In this document: piece after piece, positions 1-6,961 of the stretch | How positions within the stretch are numbered: the stretch's first letter is position 1 | Layout of the letters: each line of letters starts with the position of its first letter | Source: a virus | Lineage: Duplodnaviria > Heunggongvirae > Uroviricota > Caudoviricetes | DNA length: 6,961 nt | Virus record (IMG/VR): IMGVR_UViG_2531839579_000008 | Strand: one strand, 5' to 3' | The notes under the pieces: generated by a model | Told to the model about the DNA's origin: nothing | The model's database searches: none | The model's input: only the letters and a program-made list of their open reading frames with translations | Position numbers and translations under genes: made by a program

Positions 1-226
1 TAATTGTATTATCAATAAAATAAAAGCTTGGGCGAGCGCATATAAAGTATATATGGCATTTTGAAAGTTGTTTTTCTTGTTCTAAATTAATTTTTGCATC
101 AGACGTTAGTTGCTGAGCAGTAAGCATCGCTGTAAAACTATTTAAGTATCCAAAAGCAAATTCGTGTATGAATTTTCTTTTCACTCGAAATATCCTCACT
201 AGAAATGAATAATATTGGTTTTTCAT
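1..226 (-). CDS. Hypothetical protein, N-terminal 75 codons only (gene runs off the left edge); candidate accessory/moron gene
   Basis: Reverse-strand frame is open for 75 codons from ATG (complement of 224-226) to position 2, with an in-frame stop (complement of 236-238) just upstream, so this ATG is the first possible start. An uninterrupted frame this long is unusual in DNA of about 30% GC (my count: 26% in 1-100, 35% in 101-200). Translation begins MKNQYYSFLVRIFRVKRKFIHEFAFGYLNSFTAMLTAQQLTSDAKINLEQEKQLSKCH; I recognise no family. No convincing Shine-Dalgarno. Missing from the supplied ORF track probably because it is edge-truncated. Confidence 0.45.
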   Translation of the reverse strand, partial: MKNQYYSFLVRIFRVKRKFIHEFAFGYLNSFTAMLTAQQLTSDAKINLEQEKQLSKCHIYFICARPSFYFIDNTI

Positions 227-555
227 GATAATACTCTATTGATCCTAGACTTACCATTTAAAAAACGAACTGACATGCTCCCGTTGATTAATAAGCTGTA
301 AGGTTAGCAATTCTTTTGGCGTTGAGAACAACTGCGAACTTCCGTTCCTTGCTCAAAGCAGACTGTTAGATTTGATAGCGTTTGGGCTATGTAAGTAGCC
401 AGTTGGAGAATGAGTGAGTGCAAATCAGGACTGGCGGGCGAATTGCCTGCATTTTCTTTATCTGTTGTTTCATCCACTGACCAGCCAGGTCAAATAGCGT
501 CTTATGCTCTGCACAACAGAAAATAGTTGCACCCATTAACCACGGAGTTAAACGG
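227..555. promoter_or_regulatory. Divergent intergenic region; expected to hold the promoter of the reverse-strand ORF and the late promoter of the FI-FII-E-T-U-D operon
   Basis: 329 bp with no ORF of any size worth calling, lying between two divergently oriented genes, and a composition shift from AT-rich (left) to GC-rich (right). Shine-Dalgarno GGAG at 545-548, 7 nt before the FI ATG. I scanned 420-555 for the Ogr-type TGT-N12-ACA dyad of P2 late promoters and found no exact match, so no promoter position is called. Confidence 0.3.
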
Positions 556-1741
556 ATGAGTGACTATCATCATGGCGTGCAGGTGCTGGAGATTAACGAC
601 GGCACCCGCGTCATTTCCACCGTATCCACTGCCATTGTCGGCATGGTCTGCACGGCCAGCGATGCGGATGCGGAAACCTTCCCCCTCAATAAACCGGTGC
701 TGATTACCAATGTGCAAAGCGCAATTGCAAAGGCCGGTAAAAAAGGCACGCTGGCGGCATCGTTGCAGGCCATCGCTGACCAGTCAAAACCGGTCACCGT
801 TGTCGTGCGCGTGGAAGACGGCACCGGTGATGACGAGGAAACGAAACTCGCGCAGACCGTTTCCAATATCATCGGCACCACCGACGAAAACGGTCAGTAC
901 ACCGGACTAAAAGCCCTGCTGGCGGTGGAGTCGGTAACCGGTGTTAAACCGCGTATTCTCGGTGTGCCGGGACTGGACACCAAAGAGGTGGCTGTTGCAC
1001 TGGCATCCGTCTGTCAGAAGCTGCGCGCTTTCGGATATATCAGCGCATGGGGCTGTAAGACCATTTCCGAGGTGAAAGCCTACCGCCAGAATTTCAGCCA
1101 GCGTGAGCTGATGGTCATCTGGCCGGATTTCCTCGCATGGGATACGGTCACCAGTACCACCGCCACCGCGTATGCCACCGCCCGTGCGCTGGGTCTGCGC
1201 GCTAAAATCGACCAGGAGCAGGGCTGGCATAAAACGCTGTCCAACGTCGGGGTAAACGGTGTTACCGGCATCAGCGCATCTGTATTCTGGGATTTGCAGG
1301 AGTCGGCACCGATGCTGACCTGCTTAACGAGTCAGGCGTCACTACGCTGATTCGCCGCGACGGTTTCCGTTCTGGGGTAACCGTACCTGCTCTGATGACC
1401 CGCTGTTCCTCTTTGAAAACTAACCCGCACCGCGCAGGTGTGGCCGACACGATGGCTGAGGCGCACATGTGGGCGGTGGACAAGCCCATCACCGCAACGC
1501 TGATTCGCGACATCGTTGACGGCATCAATGCCAAATTCGTGAGCTGAAAACAAACGGCTATATCGTGGATGCGACCTGCTGGTTCAGCGAAGAATCCAAC
1601 GATGCGGAAACCCTCAAGGCCGGAAAACTGTATATCGACTACGACTATACACCGGTGCCTCCTCTTGAAAACCTGACCCTGCGCCAGCGTATTACCGATA
1701 AATACCTGGCAAATCTGGTCACTTCGGTTAACAGCAATTAA
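556..1741 (+). pseudogene. FI: Tail sheath protein gpFI (P2 family), reading frame interrupted; intact only for 556..1350 (264 aa)
   Basis: N-terminus MSDYHHGVQVLEINDGTRVISTVSTAIVGMVC matches P2 gpFI as I recall it. The ORF stops at 1348-1350, but coding continues in shifted frames: frame 0 (1308-1370) TDADLLNESGVTTLIRRDGFR, frame 2 (1373-1420) WGNRTCSDDPLFLFEN, frame 1 (1423-1440) TRTAQV, frame 0 (1443-1538) ADTMAEAHMWAVDKPITATLIRDIVDGINAKF, frame 2 (1541-1738) ELKTNGYIVDATCWFSEESNDAETLKAGKLYIDYDYTPVPPLENLTLRQRITDKYLANLVTSVNSN, with stop TAA at 1739-1741 overlapping the FII Shine-Dalgarno. Each hop is a -1 step, so five single-base losses near 1305, 1371, 1421, 1440 and 1539. Corrected length would be about 396 aa, the typical sheath size. 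Confidence 0.85.
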
Positions 1742-1753
1742 GGAGCCTGACCG

Positions 1754-2272
1754 ATGGCAATGCCGCGCAAACTCAAGTTAATGAACGTCTTTCTGAACGG
1801 CTACAGCTATCAGGGCGTTGCAAAGTCCGTCACGCTGCCAAAACTGACCCGTAAGCTTGAAAACTATCGCGGTGCGGGGATGAACGGCAGCGCACCGGTA
1901 GACCTCGGCCTTGATGACGATGCGCTGTCAATGGAGTGGTCGCTCGGTGGCTTCCCGGATTCGGTTATCTGGGAGCTTTACGCCGCAACCGGCGTGGATG
2001 CCGTCCCGATTCGTTTTGCAGGCTCTTACCAGCGCGACGATACCGGCGAAACGGTGGCCGTTGAGGTGGTCATGCGTGGACGTCAGAAAGAAATCGACAC
2101 CGGCGAGGGTAAACAGGGAGAAGACACCGAGTCGAAAATCTCCGTGGTCTGCACCTATTTCCGGCTGACGATGGACGGTAAGGAGCTGGTCGAAATCGAC
2201 ACCATCAACATGATTGAGAAGGTGAACGGCGTCGACCGGCTGGAGCAACACCGCCGCAATATCGGCCTGTGA
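1754..2272 (+). CDS. FII: Tail tube protein gpFII (P2 family)
   Basis: Intact 172-aa ORF beginning MAMPRKLKLMNVFLNGYSYQGVAKSVTLPKL, matching P2 gpFII in sequence and length as recalled. Strong Shine-Dalgarno AAGGAG at 1740-1745. Immediately follows the sheath gene as in P2. Confidence 0.9.
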   Translation: MAMPRKLKLMNVFLNGYSYQGVAKSVTLPKLTRKLENYRGAGMNGSAPVDLGLDDDALSMEWSLGGFPDSVIWELYAATGVDAVPIRFAGSYQRDDTGETVAVEVVMRGRQKEIDTGEGKQGEDTESKISVVCTYFRLTMDGKELVEIDTINMIEKVNGVDRLEQHRRNIGL

Positions 2273-2279
2273 TTTTCAT

Positions 2280-2300
2280 CCGGTCAGCCTGGCTGACCGG
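2280..2300 (+). other. Perfect palindrome / stem-loop between FII and E
   Basis: CCGGTCAGCC-T-GGCTGACCGG: two 10-nt arms that are exact reverse complements around a single central T, starting 8 nt after the FII stop. It is followed by TTAACCCC, not a U-run, so it is not a canonical intrinsic terminator. Confidence 0.35.
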
Positions 2301-2328
2301 TTAACCCCGATTCATAAGTGAGAAAACC

Positions 2329-2604
2329 ATGAACAAAGAAAATGTGATTACCCTGGACAATCCGGTCAAACGTGGTGAGCAGGTTATCGAACAGGTCACG
2401 CTGATGAAACCCAGTGCCGGGACGCTGCGCGGTGTCAGTCTGGCAGCGGTCGCAAACTCCGAAGTCGATGCACTGATTAAGGTGTTGCCGCGCATGACGG
2501 CACCGATGCTGACCGAGCAGGAAGTCGCCGCACTGGAACTGCCTGACCTTGTGGCGCTGGCCGGTAAGGTGGTCGGTTTTTTGTCGCCGAACTCGGTGCA
2601 GTGA
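2329..2604 (+). CDS. E: Tail assembly chaperone gpE (P2 family)
   Basis: Intact 91-aa ORF MNKENVITLDNPVKRGEQVIEQVTLMKPSAGTLRGVSLAAVANSEVDALIKVLPRMTAPMLTEQEVAALELPDLVALAGKVVGFLSPNSVQ, matching P2 gpE in sequence and length as recalled. Confidence 0.9.
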   Translation: MNKENVITLDNPVKRGEQVIEQVTLMKPSAGTLRGVSLAAVANSEVDALIKVLPRMTAPMLTEQEVAALELPDLVALAGKVVGFLSPNSVQ

Positions 2605-2756
2605 CGTTCCCGAAAAATCTGTCGGTCGATGACCTGATGGCGGATGTGGCAGTGATATTTCACTGGCCGCCATCAGAACTGTATCCCATGAGCCTGACCG
2701 AACTCATCACATGGCGCGAAAAGGCGCTCCGGCGAAGCGGAAACACGAATGAGTAA
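2329..2756 (+). CDS. E': gpE+E' fusion made by programmed -1 ribosomal frameshift near the 3' end of E
   Basis: Slippery run TTTTTTG at 2577-2583 inside the last codons of E. The -1 frame from 2583 is open to TAA at 2754-2756 and reads VAELGAVTFPKNLSVDDLMADVAVIFHWPPSELYPMSLTELITWREKALRRSGNTNE. Total about 142 aa, the size I recall for P2 E+E'. The E' stop overlaps the T start at 2749. Confidence 0.8.
2577..2583 (+). other. Programmed -1 frameshift slippery site (T6G) for E/E'
   Basis: TTTTTTG heptamer, 20 nt before the E stop codon, with an open -1 frame downstream. This is the arrangement of the conserved tail-chaperone frameshift in P2 (gpE/E') and lambda (gpG/GT). Confidence 0.75.
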
Positions 2757-5174
2757 CAATGTAAAATTACAGGTATTGCTCAGGGCTGTTGACCAGGCAT
2801 CCCGCCCGTTTAAATCCATCCGCACAGCGAGCAAATCGCTGTCGGGGGATATCCGGGAAACACAAAAATCACTGCGCGAGCTGAACGGTCACGCATCCCG
2901 TATTGAGGGATTCGCAAGACCAGTGCACAGCTCGCCGTGACTGGTCATGCACTTGAAAAGGCACGGCAGGAGGCCGAAGCCCTTGCCACACAGTTTAAAA
3001 ACACCGAACGTCCGACACGTGCTCAGGCGAAAGTGCTGGAATCGCAAGCGGCGGCGGAGGACTTACAGGCGAAATATAACCGCCTGACGGATTCCGTTAA
3101 ACGCCAGCAGCGGGAACTGGCCGTTGTGGGAATTAATACCCGCAATCTTGCACATGATGAGCAGGGACTGAAAAACCGTATCAGTGAAACCACCGCCCAG
3201 CTTAACCGGCAGCGTGACGCGCTGGCGCGTGTCAGTGCGCAACAGGCAAAACTTAACGCAGTCAAACAGCGTTATCAGGCCGGAAAGGAACTGGCCGGAA
3301 ATATGGCCTCAGTGGGCGCTGCCGGTGTGGGGATTGCTGCTGCGGGAACGATGGCCGGAGTTAAGTTGCTGATGCCCGGTTATGAGTTTGCGCAGAAAAA
3401 CTCAGAATTGCAGGCTGTGCTCGGTGTGGCAAAAGACTCCGCCGAAATGGCCGCGCTCCGCAAGCAGGCGCGCCAGCTCGGCGACAATACCGCAGCCTCG
3501 GCAGATGATGCAGCCGGTGCGCAGATTATTATTGCGAAAGCCGGTGGGGATGTTGATGCCATTCAGGCGGCAACGCCGGTCACGTTGAATATGGCGCTGG
3601 CGAACCGCCGCACGATGGAAGAAAACGCCGCCCTGCTGATGGGGATGAAATCCGCCTTTCAGCTTTCAAACGATAAGGTCGCTCATATCGGGGATGTTCT
3701 CTCCATGACGATGAACAAAACCGCCGCCGATTTTGACGGTATGAGCGATGCGCTGACCTATGCCGCACCTGTGGCAAAAAATGCCGGTGTCAGCATTGAA
3801 GAAACCGCCGCAATGGTCGGGGCGCTGCATGATGCAAAAATCACAGGCTCAATGGCGGGGACGGGAAGCCGTGCCGTGTTAAGCCGCCTGCAGGCACCGA
3901 CGGGAAAAGCATGGGATGCACTCAAAGAGCTTGGAGTGAAAACCTCAGACAGCAAGGGAAACACCCGGCCAATATTTACCATTCTGAAAGAAATGCAGGC
4001 CAGTTTTGAGAAAAACCGGCTCGGTACTGCCCAGCAGGCTGAATACATGAAAACCATTTTCGGGGAGGAGGCCAGCTCAGCCGCCGCTGTGCTGATGACT
4101 GCCGCCTCAACCGGAAAGCTGGACAAACTGACCGCTGCGTTTAAAGCCTCAGACGGGAAGACCGCAGAGCTGGTAAATATCATGCAGGACAACCTCGGCG
4201 GTGACTTTAAGGAGTTTCAGTCCGCTTATGAGGCGGTGGGGACGACCTGTTTGACCAGCAGGAAGGCGCACTGCGTAATCTCACGCAGACGGCCACAAAG
4301 TATGTGTTAAAACTCGACGGCTGGATCCAGAAAAACAAATCACTGGCGTCAACCATCGGCTCATTGTCGGTGGGCCTGGCCTATTGGTCATCGGTGCCAT
4401 TGGCTGTAGCCTGGCCGGTTATCACGGCATCAATGCCATCATCGCGGCAGCAGGCGCAATGGGGGCATCTTCACGACGGTTGGCAGTGCTGTTATGACGC
4501 CATCGGGGCGATTAGCTGGCCGGTTGTGGCCGTGGTGGCCGCCATTGTCGCCGGGGCGTTGCTTATCCGTAAATACTGGGAGCCTGTCAGCGCATTCTTT
4601 GGCGGTGTGGTGGAAGGGCTGAAAGCGGCATTTGCGCCGGTGGGGGAACTGTTCACGCCACTTAAACCGGTGTTTGACTGGCTGGGCGAAAAGTTACAGG
4701 CCGCGTGGCAGTGGTTTAAAAACCTGATTGCCCCGGTCAAAGCCACCCAGGACACCCTGAACCGTTGCCGTGACACGGGCGTCATGTTCGGGCAGGCACT
4801 GGCTGACGCGCTGATGCTGCCGCTTAATGCGTTCAACAAACTGCGCGGCGGTATTGACTGGGTACTGGAAAAACTCGGCGTCATCAACAAAGAGTCAGGC
4901 ACGCTTGACCAGACCGCCGCCAGAACTCATGCCGCCACGTATGGCACCGGTGGTTATATTCCGGCGACCAGCTCTTATGCAGGTTATCAGGCTTATCAGC
5001 CGGTCACGGCACCGGCTGGCCGCTCTTATGTAGACCAGAGTAAAAACGAATATCACATCACCTGACGGGGGTACTCGCCGGGGAACAGCTCGACCGCCAG
5101 TTACAGGATGCCTCGAAAAATACGAGCGGGATAAACGTGCGCGCGCCCGTGCCAGCATGATGCATGACGGTTAA
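2749..5174 (+). pseudogene. T: Tail tape measure protein gpT (P2 family), reading frame interrupted at several points
   Basis: N-terminus MSNNVKLQVLLRAVDQASRPFKSIRTASKSL matches P2 gpT as recalled. The track splits the gene into 2749..2940 (frame 1), 2937..4310 (frame 0) and 4304..5065 (frame 2). Frame hops: near 2913 (IEGF then RKTSAQLAVTGHAL in the next frame); near 4244 (EAVGT then LFDQQEGALRNLTQTATKYVLKLDGW); three hops in 4362-4499 within a hydrophobic segment; near 5062 and 5112, after which frame 0 reads LEKYERDKRARARASMMHDG to TAA at 5172-5174, which overlaps the U Shine-Dalgarno AAGGAGG (5173-5179). Corrected length about 810 aa, against about 815 aa recalled for P2 gpT. Confidence 0.85.
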
Positions 5175-5188
5175 GGAGGTGACGAAAA

Positions 5189-5662
5189 ATGATGCTCGCG
5201 TTAGGTATGTTTGTTTTTATGCGCCAGACGCTGCCACACCAGACCATGCAGCGTGAATCAGATTATCGCTGGCCGTCAAATTCCCGTATCGGTAAACGGG
5301 AGCTTTCAGTTTCTCGGTGTGGGAGGAAAACATCACGCTTGCCGGTGTGCTTTATCCCGACTGACCGGCGGAAGCTGACGATGACCACGCTCAGGCTGAT
5401 GGCAGAGGAAGGCCGGGCGTGGCCGTTGCTGGATGGCACCGGCATGATTTACGGCATGTATGTCATCAGCAGGGTGAGTGAAGCAGGGAGTATTTTCTTT
5501 GCAGACGGCACACCCCGAAAAATTGATTTTACGCTGTCGCTTACCCGCGTTGATGAATCACTGGCCGCGCTTTATGGCGATATCGGTAAACAGGCGGAAT
5601 CGCTCATCGGTAAGGCTGGCAGTATGGCGACTAAATTCACGGGTATGACGGGGGCGGGATAA
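5189..5662 (+). CDS. U: Tail protein gpU (P2 family); full-length frame but with an internal 25-aa stretch that appears to be read out of frame
   Basis: 157-aa ORF with Shine-Dalgarno AAGGAGG at 5173-5179. The N-terminus MMLALGMFVFMRQTLPHQTMQRESDYRWPSNSRIGKR and the C-terminus KLTMTTLRLMAEEGRAWPLLDGTGMIYGMYVISRVSEAGSIFFADGTPRKIDFTLSLTRVDESLAALYGDIGKQAESLIGKAGSMATKFTGMTGAG match P2 gpU as recalled. The middle segment ELSVSRCGRKTSRLPVCFIPTDRR (5300-5371) is Arg/Cys-rich, while the other two frames over the same bases read FQFLGVG, EENITLAGVLYP and LTGG. Confidence 0.85.
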   Translation: MMLALGMFVFMRQTLPHQTMQRESDYRWPSNSRIGKRELSVSRCGRKTSRLPVCFIPTDRRKLTMTTLRLMAEEGRAWPLLDGTGMIYGMYVISRVSEAGSIFFADGTPRKIDFTLSLTRVDESLAALYGDIGKQAESLIGKAGSMATKFTGMTGAG

Positions 5663-6825
5663 TGCTGGATGCGCTGACATTTGATGCAGGCAGTACGCTG
5701 ACGCCGGATTACATGCTGATGCTCGACAGCAGGGATATTACCGGCAATATCAGCGACCGTCTGATGAGCATGACCCTGACGGATAACCGGGGCTTTGAGG
5801 CTGACCAGCTTGATATTGAACTGAACGATGCCGACGGGCAGGTCGGGCTACCGATTCGTGGCGCTGTCCTGACGGTGTATATCGGCTGGAAAGGTTTTGC
5901 CCTGGTATGCAAAGGGAAATTTACCGTTGATGAGGTTGAACACCGGGGCGCGCCGGATGTGGTTACCATCCGCGCCCGGAGTGCAGATTTCCGCGGGACG
6001 CTTAATTCCCGCCGGGAAGGCTCCTGGCATGACACCACGCTCGGTGCGATTGTTGAGGCGATAGCCTCCCGTAACAAGCTGGAGGCCAGTGTCGCTCCGT
6101 CACTGGCCGGAATTAAAATCCCGCACATCGACCAGTCGCAGGAGTCTGATGCGAAATTCCTGATCCGTCTTGCTGAACGCAACGGCGGTGAGGTGTCGGT
6201 AAAAATGGGAAAACTGTTGTTTCTTAAGGCGGGGCAGGGGGTGACGGCCAGCGGTAAAAAAATCCCGCAGATTACCATCACCCGCAGCGACGGCGACCGT
6301 CATCATTTTGCGATTGCTGACCGTGGAGCCTACACCGGTGTAACGGCAAAATGGCTACACACCAAAGACCCGAAGCCTCAAAAGCAGAAGGTAAAACTGA
6401 AACGTAAAAAGAAAGAGAAACACCTGCGCGCACTGGAGCACCCGAAAGCGAAACCGGTCAGGCAGAAGAAAGCGCCTAAAGTACCGGAAGCGCGTGAAGG
6501 TGAATACATGGCCGGTGAGGCTGACAACGTTTTTGCCCTGACCACGGTATATGCCACGAAAGCACAGGCCATGCGTGCCGCTCAGGCGAAGTGGGATAAG
6601 CTGCAACGGGGTGTAGCGGAGTTCTCCATCAGCCTGGCTACTGGTCGGGCAGATATTTACACGGAAACACCGGTTAAAGTGTCAGGCTTTAAGCGCGTCA
6701 TAGACGAGCAGGACTGGACAATCACTAAGGTGACACATTTTCTGAATAACAGCGGCTTCACGACGTCCCTGGAGCTTGAGGTCAGGCTTTCTGATGTGAA
6801 GTACGAAACAGAAGATGATGAGTGA
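5662..6825 (+). CDS. D: Tail protein gpD (phage late control gene D family, P2 family)
   Basis: Intact 387-aa ORF MLDALTFDAGSTLTPDYMLMLDSRDITGNISDRLMSMTLTDNRGFEADQLDIELNDADGQ, matching P2 gpD in sequence and length as recalled. Its start overlaps the U stop (TAATG at 5660-5664). Contains the lysine-rich basic stretch typical of gpD. Confidence 0.9.
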   Translation: MLDALTFDAGSTLTPDYMLMLDSRDITGNISDRLMSMTLTDNRGFEADQLDIELNDADGQVGLPIRGAVLTVYIGWKGFALVCKGKFTVDEVEHRGAPDVVTIRARSADFRGTLNSRREGSWHDTTLGAIVEAIASRNKLEASVAPSLAGIKIPHIDQSQESDAKFLIRLAERNGGEVSVKMGKLLFLKAGQGVTASGKKIPQITITRSDGDRHHFAIADRGAYTGVTAKWLHTKDPKPQKQKVKLKRKKKEKHLRALEHPKAKPVRQKKAPKVPEAREGEYMAGEADNVFALTTVYATKAQAMRAAQAKWDKLQRGVAEFSISLATGRADIYTETPVKVSGFKRVIDEQDWTITKVTHFLNNSGFTTSLELEVRLSDVKYETEDDE

Positions 6826-6906
6826 TGTTTTGTTTTTATCTGTTTGTTTTATAAGGATAAATTAACTAAAATGGCACCATCAACAAAACCGGAAGAGGTG
6901 CTCGCG
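6826..6906 (+). promoter_or_regulatory. D-ogr intergenic region, presumed to carry the ogr promoter and ribosome-binding site
   Basis: 81-bp AT-rich spacer containing a TATAAG -10-like hexamer at 6850-6855 and a Shine-Dalgarno AAGAGG (about 6893-6898) 8 nt before the ATG at 6907. I could not find a well-spaced -35 element, and there is no GC-rich hairpin after the D stop. Confidence 0.3.
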
Positions 6907-6961
6907 ATGTTTCATTGTCCTTTATGCCAGCATGCCGCACATGCGCGTACAAGTCGCTATA
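6907..6961 (+). CDS. ogr: Ogr zinc-finger late-gene transcriptional activator, 5' end only (runs off the right edge)
   Basis: Translation from ATG 6907 reads MFHCPLCQHAAHARTSRY, which is the N-terminus of P2 Ogr as I recall it and includes the CxxC zinc-binding motif. It sits directly after D as in P2. An in-frame ATG at 6871 would add 12 residues (MAPSTKPEEVLA) but has a poorer ribosome-binding site. Confidence 0.85.
   Translation, partial: MFHCPLCQHAAHARTSRY

What the first reader, a model, noticed from the sequence alone, without database searches (positions are those of the whole stretch)
1290..1741. Tail sheath gene FI broken by five successive -1 frame hops in its last 440 bp
The FI frame stops at 1350 after 264 codons, yet protein-like sequence continues through frame 0, frame 2, frame 1, frame 0 and frame 2 down to a TAA at 1739-1741 that sits exactly where a sheath gene should end, just before the FII ribosome-binding site. 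The final frame is open for 66 codons. Every hop goes in the same direction, so each is a single-base loss. The first 750 bp of the gene show no such events.
Basis: partly seen in the sequence, partly recalled or inferred. Interest (0 to 1): 0.65.

Follow-up and report, generated by a model that had tools for sequence, protein, structure and literature searches.

The report
Assembly artefact breaking a prophage sheath gene
The five frame shifts in this P2-type tail sheath gene are almost certainly not biology: they are single bases dropped by a draft assembly wherever two slightly different prophage copies, merged into one contig, disagreed.

Summary
FI (556-1741) has lost exactly five single bases, after window positions 1303, 1369, 1422, 1440 and 1537. 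Restoring them gives an uninterrupted 396-codon sheath gene, one residue different from E. coli S88 FI.

The losses are not confined to FI. The window lacks 33 bases and has no extra base relative to every intact P2-like reference: 5 in FI, 22 in tape-measure gene T and 6 in U.

The missing bases are not in homopolymers. They sit on sites where P2-like alleles differ. Merging two alleles (S88-type and ETEC 120899-type) and deleting every column where they disagree reproduces window 1258-1641 exactly, and the same rule reproduces every other cluster.

The window is a whole 6,961-bp contig (AQBU01000162.1) of a draft assembly. Three P2-like contigs from other draft assemblies show the same deletion-only pattern at other subsets of the polymorphic sites. 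No listed complete-genome match shares the losses.

Verdict: this is a consensus artefact of co-assembled prophage copies, not a pseudogene, recoding or a real feature. Which software step did it is unknown. Interest is low, apart from a data-quality warning.

The parts
556..1741 (+). P2-type tail sheath gene FI, as deposited split over six frame segments (556-1303, 1304-1369, 1370-1422, 1423-1440, 1441-1537, 1538-1741). The called product is truncated at TGA 1348-1350.
   Evidence: Repair with five bases gives 396 aa with no internal stop and 1 aa difference from S88 WP_001286719.1. Pfam PF04984, PF22671 and PF17482 hit the fragments.
1303..1304 (+). Dropout 1: the C/T column of codon TCC/TTC is missing (S88 C, 120899 T).
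1369..1370 (+). Dropout 2: the A/C(/G) third-codon column is missing (S88 A, 120899 C).
1422..1423 (+). Dropout 3: the C/T third-codon column is missing (S88 C, 120899 T).
1440..1441 (+). Dropout 4: the A/C column is missing (ATG Met in S88, CTG Leu in 120899 and P2).
1537..1538 (+). Dropout 5: the C/T third-codon column is missing (TTC in S88, TTT in 120899 and P2).
1258..1641 (+). Merge zone. These 384 bases equal the S88 and 120899 alleles merged with their five discordant columns removed. The contig follows the S88-type allele to the left and the 120899-type allele to the right.
1754..2272 (+). Tail tube gene FII, intact (172 aa).
2329..2756 (+). Tail chaperone genes E and E+E', with the natural slippery run GGTTTTTTG at 2575-2583. 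Intact.
2749..5174 (+). Tape-measure gene T, broken by 22 dropped bases: 2910; 3042-3050 (3); 4243; 4359-4498 (12); 5060-5111 (5). All are at allele-discordant columns.
   Evidence: Repair gives 815 aa.
5189..5662 (+). Tail gene U, garbled by 6 dropped bases at 5301-5371. The loss is a multiple of three, so the ORF stays open but about 23 codons are wrong.
   Evidence: Repair gives 159 aa.
5662..6825 (+). Tail gene D, intact (387 aa).
1..6961 (.). The whole window is contig AQBU01000162.1 of draft assembly GCA_000358575.2. It starts in allele-specific cargo upstream of FI and ends inside ogr (from 6907).

Best explanation
The window is a chimeric consensus contig from a draft E. coli assembly. 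Reads or sub-contigs from at least two P2-like tail modules about 97-98% identical were piled together. Most likely these were two prophages resident in the same genome. In the stretches where both alleles were present, every column where they disagreed was left out of the consensus instead of being called as one base. Each omission reads as a 1-nt deletion, so FI, T and U look frameshifted. The real prophages most probably carry intact genes.

Shown: the losses, their exclusive direction, their coincidence with allelic differences, the exact two-allele reconstruction, the draft-contig origin, and recurrence in other draft contigs.

Inferred: that the two alleles come from co-resident prophages rather than a mixed culture or a merge of assemblies. 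The software step is also inferred.
For: (1) Against S88 the window has 31 indel events, all deletions (33 nt), and no insertion. Every full-length reference listed spans 6994 nt against 6961.
(2) In a 10-reference alignment all five FI gaps, and at least 23 of 33 gap columns overall, are polymorphic, against 10.7% of columns. With 12 intact references the strict count is 19 of 33 (24 of 33 allowing equivalent gap placement), binomial P = 9e-11.
(3) S88 and 120899 differ at exactly five sites in 1258-1641. These are the five FI deletions, and the window equals both alleles elsewhere.
(4) Merging two alleles and dropping discordant columns reproduces exactly 1258-1641 (5 sites), 3025-3070 (3), 4328-4463 (10), 4465-4540 (2), 5033-5150 (5), 5294-5394 (6) and the single sites 2912 and 4243. 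No single allele does.
(5) The window follows the S88-type allele in 556-1257 (2 mismatches against 21) and the 120899-type allele in 1642-2892 (7 against 23), so the FI cluster lies at an allele switch.
(6) Zero substitutions accompany the five deletions inside the zone.
(7) 21 of 33 missing bases are in runs of length 1 and none in runs of 4 or more. 27 of 28 homopolymers of 5 or more are identical to the reference; the exception is a substitution.
(8) Restoring the 33 bases gives FI 396, FII 172, T 815, U 159 and D 387 aa.
(9) The window is an entire 6,961-bp contig of a draft WGS assembly.
(10) Three other short draft contigs show 14, 26 and 9 missing bases, no extra bases, at polymorphic columns (P from 3e-5 to 2e-16), in different but overlapping subsets.
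(11) No listed match among 5,426 complete E. coli genomes or 50,697 phage records shares the losses, and exact deletion-spanning patterns are absent from 185,579 representative genomes.
(12) Genomes with 2-4 P2-like places are common.
Against: No reads or coverage data could be inspected, so the two-allele pile-up is inferred from the product.

For four clusters the second parent had to be taken from sibling draft contigs (L011-L013), which carry the artefact elsewhere and may themselves be chimeric.

No single complete genome was shown to hold both FI parents. The two copies examined in ETEC 602354 share one FI allele.

Between clusters the window matches no panel member perfectly, so the true parents are not in the panel.

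The responsible program is unknown, and no paper describing this exact behaviour was found.
Confidence: 0.95

Rival explanations
1. A truly decaying (cryptic) P2-like prophage whose FI, T and U genes have accumulated real 1-nt deletions.
For: Defective P2-like remnants exist in E. coli, and deletion bias is normal in bacterial pseudogenes (general knowledge). The record as deposited does carry the deletions.
Against: Real decay would give substitutions as well as indels, some insertions, and positions unrelated to polymorphisms between two other intact alleles. Here there are 33 deletions and no insertions, no substitutions inside the FI zone, and exact coincidence with allele-discordant columns. 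FII, E and D in between are perfect. No listed complete genome shares any of the pattern. Different draft contigs show different subsets at the same class of sites, which inheritance cannot explain.
Confidence: 0.02
2. Ordinary random sequencing error: homopolymer miscalls (454, Ion or nanopore) or poor read ends at low coverage.
For: The errors are clustered and deletion-only, as in poor read tails. The contig comes from a fragmented 2013-era draft.
Against: The missing bases are mostly outside homopolymers, and all long homopolymers have the reference length. Random errors would not fall on allele-discordant columns (P = 9e-11). They would not be reproduced exactly by a two-allele merge.
Confidence: 0.02
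3. Programmed ribosomal frameshifting or another recoding mechanism that reads through five -1 shifts to make full-length sheath protein.
For: P2 does use one programmed -1 shift nearby, in E/E+E' at 2575-2583.
Against: The references examined encode FI in one frame. The five sites (GAGTCGG, TCCGTTC, ACTAACC, GGTGTGG, AATTCGT) have no X XXY YYZ slippery heptamer, read directly. Five consecutive shifts would leave essentially no product.
Confidence: 0.003

Closest known systems
Bacteriophage P2 gene FI (contractile tail sheath, Pfam Phage_sheath_1 and Phage_sheath_1C) in the FI-FII-E-E'-T-U-D-ogr late operon
   Same: 97.5% DNA identity to P2 and 99.4% to the S88 prophage over 500-1800. Gene order is identical. 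The repaired product is 396 aa, 1 aa different from S88 FI and 6 aa from P2 FI.
   Different: As deposited it lacks five bases and is called as fragments of 264, 50 and 58 aa.
Collapsed-repeat or merged-haplotype consensus errors in draft assemblies
   Same: A short contig bounded by variable sequence. A chimeric allele path. Errors only where the copies differ. Absent from finished genomes. Recurs in other drafts.
   Different: The usual outcome is a majority base or an ambiguity code. Here the discordant column is removed outright, giving frameshifts. I found no description of this exact behaviour, and the assembler is unknown.
P2 E/E+E' programmed -1 frameshift
   Same: It is a -1 frame change in the same operon and is present and intact in this window at 2575-2583.
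   Different: It is a single conserved slippery site found in all relatives. The FI hops are absent from all relatives examined and lack slippery sequences.

Membership tests
P2-type tail sheath gene FI | Full-length sequence homology to gpFI | tested here: met
   colinear over the whole gene. The repaired product is 396 aa and 395/396 identical to S88 FI.
P2-type tail sheath gene FI | Synteny with FII, E/E', T, U, D and ogr | tested here: met
P2-type tail sheath gene FI | Single uninterrupted reading frame of about 396 codons | tested here: not met
   stops at codon 264 as deposited. This is attributed to the artefact, not to the phage.
Consensus artefact of co-assembled near-identical copies | Errors confined to positions where the copies differ | tested here: met
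   5 of 5 FI sites. In the whole window 19 of 33 strict and 24 of 33 allowing equivalent gap placement, against a 10.9% baseline (P = 9e-11). All 33 are explained by pair merges.
Consensus artefact of co-assembled near-identical copies | The sequence can be regenerated from two real alleles by a simple rule | tested here: met
   exact reproduction of all eight zones. No single allele reproduces any zone.
Consensus artefact of co-assembled near-identical copies | Comes from a fragmented draft assembly and is absent from finished genomes | tested here: met
   (whole 6,961-bp WGS contig)
Consensus artefact of co-assembled near-identical copies | Reads show two alleles and roughly double coverage at the sites, with no read carrying the deletion | not testable with these tools
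   No read data are available here.
Pseudogene in a decaying prophage | A mixture of substitutions, insertions and deletions at positions unrelated to polymorphism in intact relatives, inherited by related genomes | tested here: not met
   33 deletions, 0 insertions, no substitution in the FI zone, sited on polymorphic columns. Not shared by any listed complete genome.
Programmed ribosomal frameshift | A slippery heptamer, and conservation of the two-frame arrangement in homologues | tested here: not met
   no slippery motifs at the five sites; homologues are in one frame.

The most novel reading that the evidence does not exclude
The deletions are real and arose in vivo. Recombination between two co-resident P2-like prophages made heteroduplex DNA, and an aberrant repair process removed one nucleotide at every mismatch. 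This would leave a 'mismatch-deletion scar' tract in FI, T and U, repeated independently in sister strains.
Probability: 0.005. Interest if true: 0.8.

Novelty: not a real feature. Interest (0 to 1): 0.06.

Why it matters
Biologically it does not matter. The sheath, tape-measure and U genes of this prophage are almost certainly intact.

It matters for data quality. Public draft assemblies, and viral catalogues built from them, contain P2-like contigs whose frameshifted genes are consensus artefacts. At least three IMG/VR entries were found here. Such contigs can be miscounted as pseudogenes, defective prophages, recoding events or novel short proteins.

The signature is easy to screen for: deletion-only differences that fall exactly on sites polymorphic among close relatives, clustered where the contig switches allele.

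Tried and rejected
- Exact deletion-spanning patterns in 185,579 representative genomes gave no hit.
- Searches of papers for AQBU or GCA_000358575 found nothing. The ETEC mSystems paper and its supplements do not mention the project, and its drafts were SPAdes assemblies from a later date. The strain name and assembler remain unknown.
- Literature searches for a description of base dropout at polymorphic sites in collapsed consensus gave nothing specific.
- Pair merges using only intact references reproduced just the FI and T-3' zones. The other zones needed sibling draft contigs as parent proxies.
- I looked for both FI parents in one complete genome. The two copies of ETEC 602354 that I fetched share the same FI allele, and the S88-type FI allele was not among the ETEC genomes. 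Co-residence of the two parents is therefore not demonstrated.
- Homopolymer error was rejected.
- Pfam and PADLOC searches on the upstream cargo protein gave no hit.
- An Rfam scan of the window gave no hit.
- I could not distinguish flow-space averaging, a tie called as a gap, and stripped IUPAC codes from the sequence alone. All three predict the same product.

Full report
WHAT IS THERE

The window is the late tail operon of a P2-like prophage. It runs from a cargo gene start (minus strand, 1-184) through FI (556-1741), FII (1754-2272), E/E+E' (2329-2756), T (2749-5174), U (5189-5662) and D (5662-6825) to the first 55 nt of ogr (from 6907). This is shown by colinear alignment to the annotated prophage of E. 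coli S88 and to P2 itself. Over 500-1800 it is 99.4% identical to S88 and 97.5% identical to P2.

CHECKING THE OBSERVATION

The ORF from ATG 556 ends at TGA 1348-1350 after 264 codons. Pairwise alignment to S88 and to P2 shows five single-base gaps in the window inside FI, after 1303, 1369, 1422, 1440 and 1537. There are no insertions and no indel in 556-1302. TAA 1739-1741 is the natural FI stop. Putting the five bases back gives a 396-codon ORF with no internal stop, differing from S88 FI at one residue (V124A).

THE SAME THING HAPPENS OUTSIDE FI

Across the whole window there are 31 gap events against S88, all of them deletions in the window (33 nt): 5 in FI, 22 in T and 6 in U. They are clustered at 1303-1537, 2910-3050, 4243-4498, 5060-5111 and 5301-5371. 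Every full-length E. coli reference listed spans 6994 nt against the window's 6961. Restoring the 33 bases yields the canonical set FI 396, FII 172, T 815, U 159 and D 387 aa.

WHERE THE MISSING BASES FALL

- They are not in homopolymers. 21 of 33 lie in runs of length 1 and none in runs of 4 or more. 27 of the 28 homopolymers of 5 or more in the module are identical to the reference, and the exception is a substitution.
- They fall on sites that vary among P2-like alleles. In an alignment with 10 references, all five FI gaps and at least 23 of 33 gap columns are polymorphic, against 10.7% of all columns.
- With 12 intact references the strict count is 19 of 33 (24 of 33 allowing equivalent gap placement), binomial P = 9e-11.
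- Most telling, within 1258-1641 the S88 allele and the allele of ETEC strain 120899 differ at exactly five positions: C/T, A/C, C/T, A/C and C/T. Those are the five deleted positions, and the window agrees with both alleles everywhere else.

A GENERATIVE TEST

I took two alleles, kept each column where they agree and deleted each column where they differ.

- S88 + 120899 reproduces window 1258-1641 (384 nt) exactly. No single allele does.
- The same rule reproduces every other cluster exactly with some pair of alleles: 3025-3070 (3 sites), 4328-4463 (10), 4465-4540 (2), 5033-5150 (5), 5294-5394 (6), and the single sites at 2912 and 4243.
- For one fixed pair, the chance that five random columns of 389 are the five discordant ones is 1.4e-11.
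- The contig follows the S88-type allele before the FI cluster (2 mismatches against 21 for 120899 in 556-1257). It follows the 120899-type allele after it (7 against 23 in 1642-2892). The cluster therefore sits where the contig switches allele.

PROVENANCE

The exact 264-aa truncated product is on record on one contig: AQBU01000162.1 of NCBI draft assembly GCA_000358575.2. That contig is 6,961 bp long, so the window is the whole contig. A short contig that starts in allele-specific cargo and ends in ogr is what a collapsed or merged repeat looks like.

Deletion-spanning patterns found three further short P2-like contigs in IMG/VR from other assemblies: L011, L012 and L013. They are not the window. 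They have the same signature:
- 14, 26 and 9 bases missing, and none extra.
- The gaps fall on polymorphic columns (P from 3e-5 to 2e-16).
- The subsets of sites differ but overlap. For example, L012 lacks window positions 1194, 1200, 1237 and 1257, which are S88/120899 differences that the window retains.

Inheritance cannot give such a pattern. A pipeline artefact can.

None of the listed matches among 5,426 complete E. coli genomes or 50,697 phage records shares the losses, and the patterns are absent from 185,579 representative genomes. Many E. coli genomes hold 2-4 P2-like tail modules. The eight complete ETEC genomes carrying the 120899-type FI allele all have two or three.

MECHANISM

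- Shown: the contig is a consensus of at least two alleles from which discordant columns were removed.
- Inferred: the alleles are two prophages of one genome whose reads or sub-contigs were piled together.
- Unknown: which step removed the columns. I could not separate them, and I found no paper describing the behaviour.

RIVALS

- Real gene decay is contradicted by several facts: the 33:0 deletion-to-insertion ratio, the absence of substitutions in the FI zone, the siting on polymorphic columns, the perfect neighbouring genes, and the differing subsets in sibling contigs.
- Random or homopolymer error is contradicted and by the exact two-allele reconstruction.
- Programmed frameshifting is contradicted because the homologues examined are in one frame and the five sites have no slippery heptamer. 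The genuine E/E+E' slippery site at 2575-2583 is present and untouched.

CAVEATS

- No reads were available.
- Four zones needed sibling draft contigs as proxies for the second parent.
- No single finished genome was shown to carry both FI parents.
- Between zones no panel member matches perfectly.

VERDICT

The cause is an assembly consensus artefact, not a real feature of the phage. Interest is low. The useful by-product is a simple signature for flagging such contigs in public collections.

Noticed in passing
window 2749-5174 and 5189-5662: The same single-base dropouts break tape-measure gene T (22 bases in five clusters, called as fragments of 63, 457 and 253 aa). They also garble about 23 codons of U (6 bases, so the frame is restored). 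Restoring the bases gives T 815 aa and U 159 aa.
   Followed up: yes
window 1-350 (minus-strand ORF start at 184); L017 2321-3304: The left end carries the first 61 codons (61/61 identical) of a 327-aa hypothetical protein (WP_223675583.1 in E. coli 05-3629). It sits in the variable cargo slot between tail-fibre assembly gene G and FI, the P2 Z/fun position. It has no Pfam or PADLOC match. Other references carry quite different cargo there: DUF5677 plus an integrase-like gene in S88, and an S1 peptidase in 602354. It could be an uncharacterised defence or moron gene.
   Followed up: partly
L011 (IMGVR_UViG_2531839586_000013), L012 (IMGVR_UViG_2537561693_000014), L013 (IMGVR_UViG_2537561685_000016): Three IMG/VR P2-like contigs from other draft assemblies show the same deletion-only dropouts at polymorphic sites (14, 26 and 9 bases). 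The artefact therefore recurs in public viral catalogues and probably stems from one pipeline.
   Followed up: partly
window 2575-2583: The natural programmed -1 frameshift site of the tail chaperone pair E/E+E' (GGTTTTTTG) is present and identical to the references. It is the one real frame hop in the window.
   Followed up: partly
window 2280-2300: There is a perfect 10-bp inverted repeat, CCGGTCAGCC / GGCTGACCGG, just after the FII stop. It looks like a hairpin, possibly a terminator or attenuator, between FII and E. It was not analysed.
   Followed up: no
L015 and L016 (E. coli 602354, 4.98 Mb and 2.03 Mb): The 120899-type FI allele occurs at 100% identity only in eight complete ETEC genomes, each with 2-3 P2-like prophages. 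In strain 602354 two copies share identical FI, FII and E proteins but differ in T, U, D and cargo, which illustrates the mosaicism that makes these regions hard to assemble.
   Followed up: partly
window 6907-6961: The contig ends 55 nt into ogr, while sibling contig L013 continues about 2.7 kb further. The break point was not explained.
   Followed up: no
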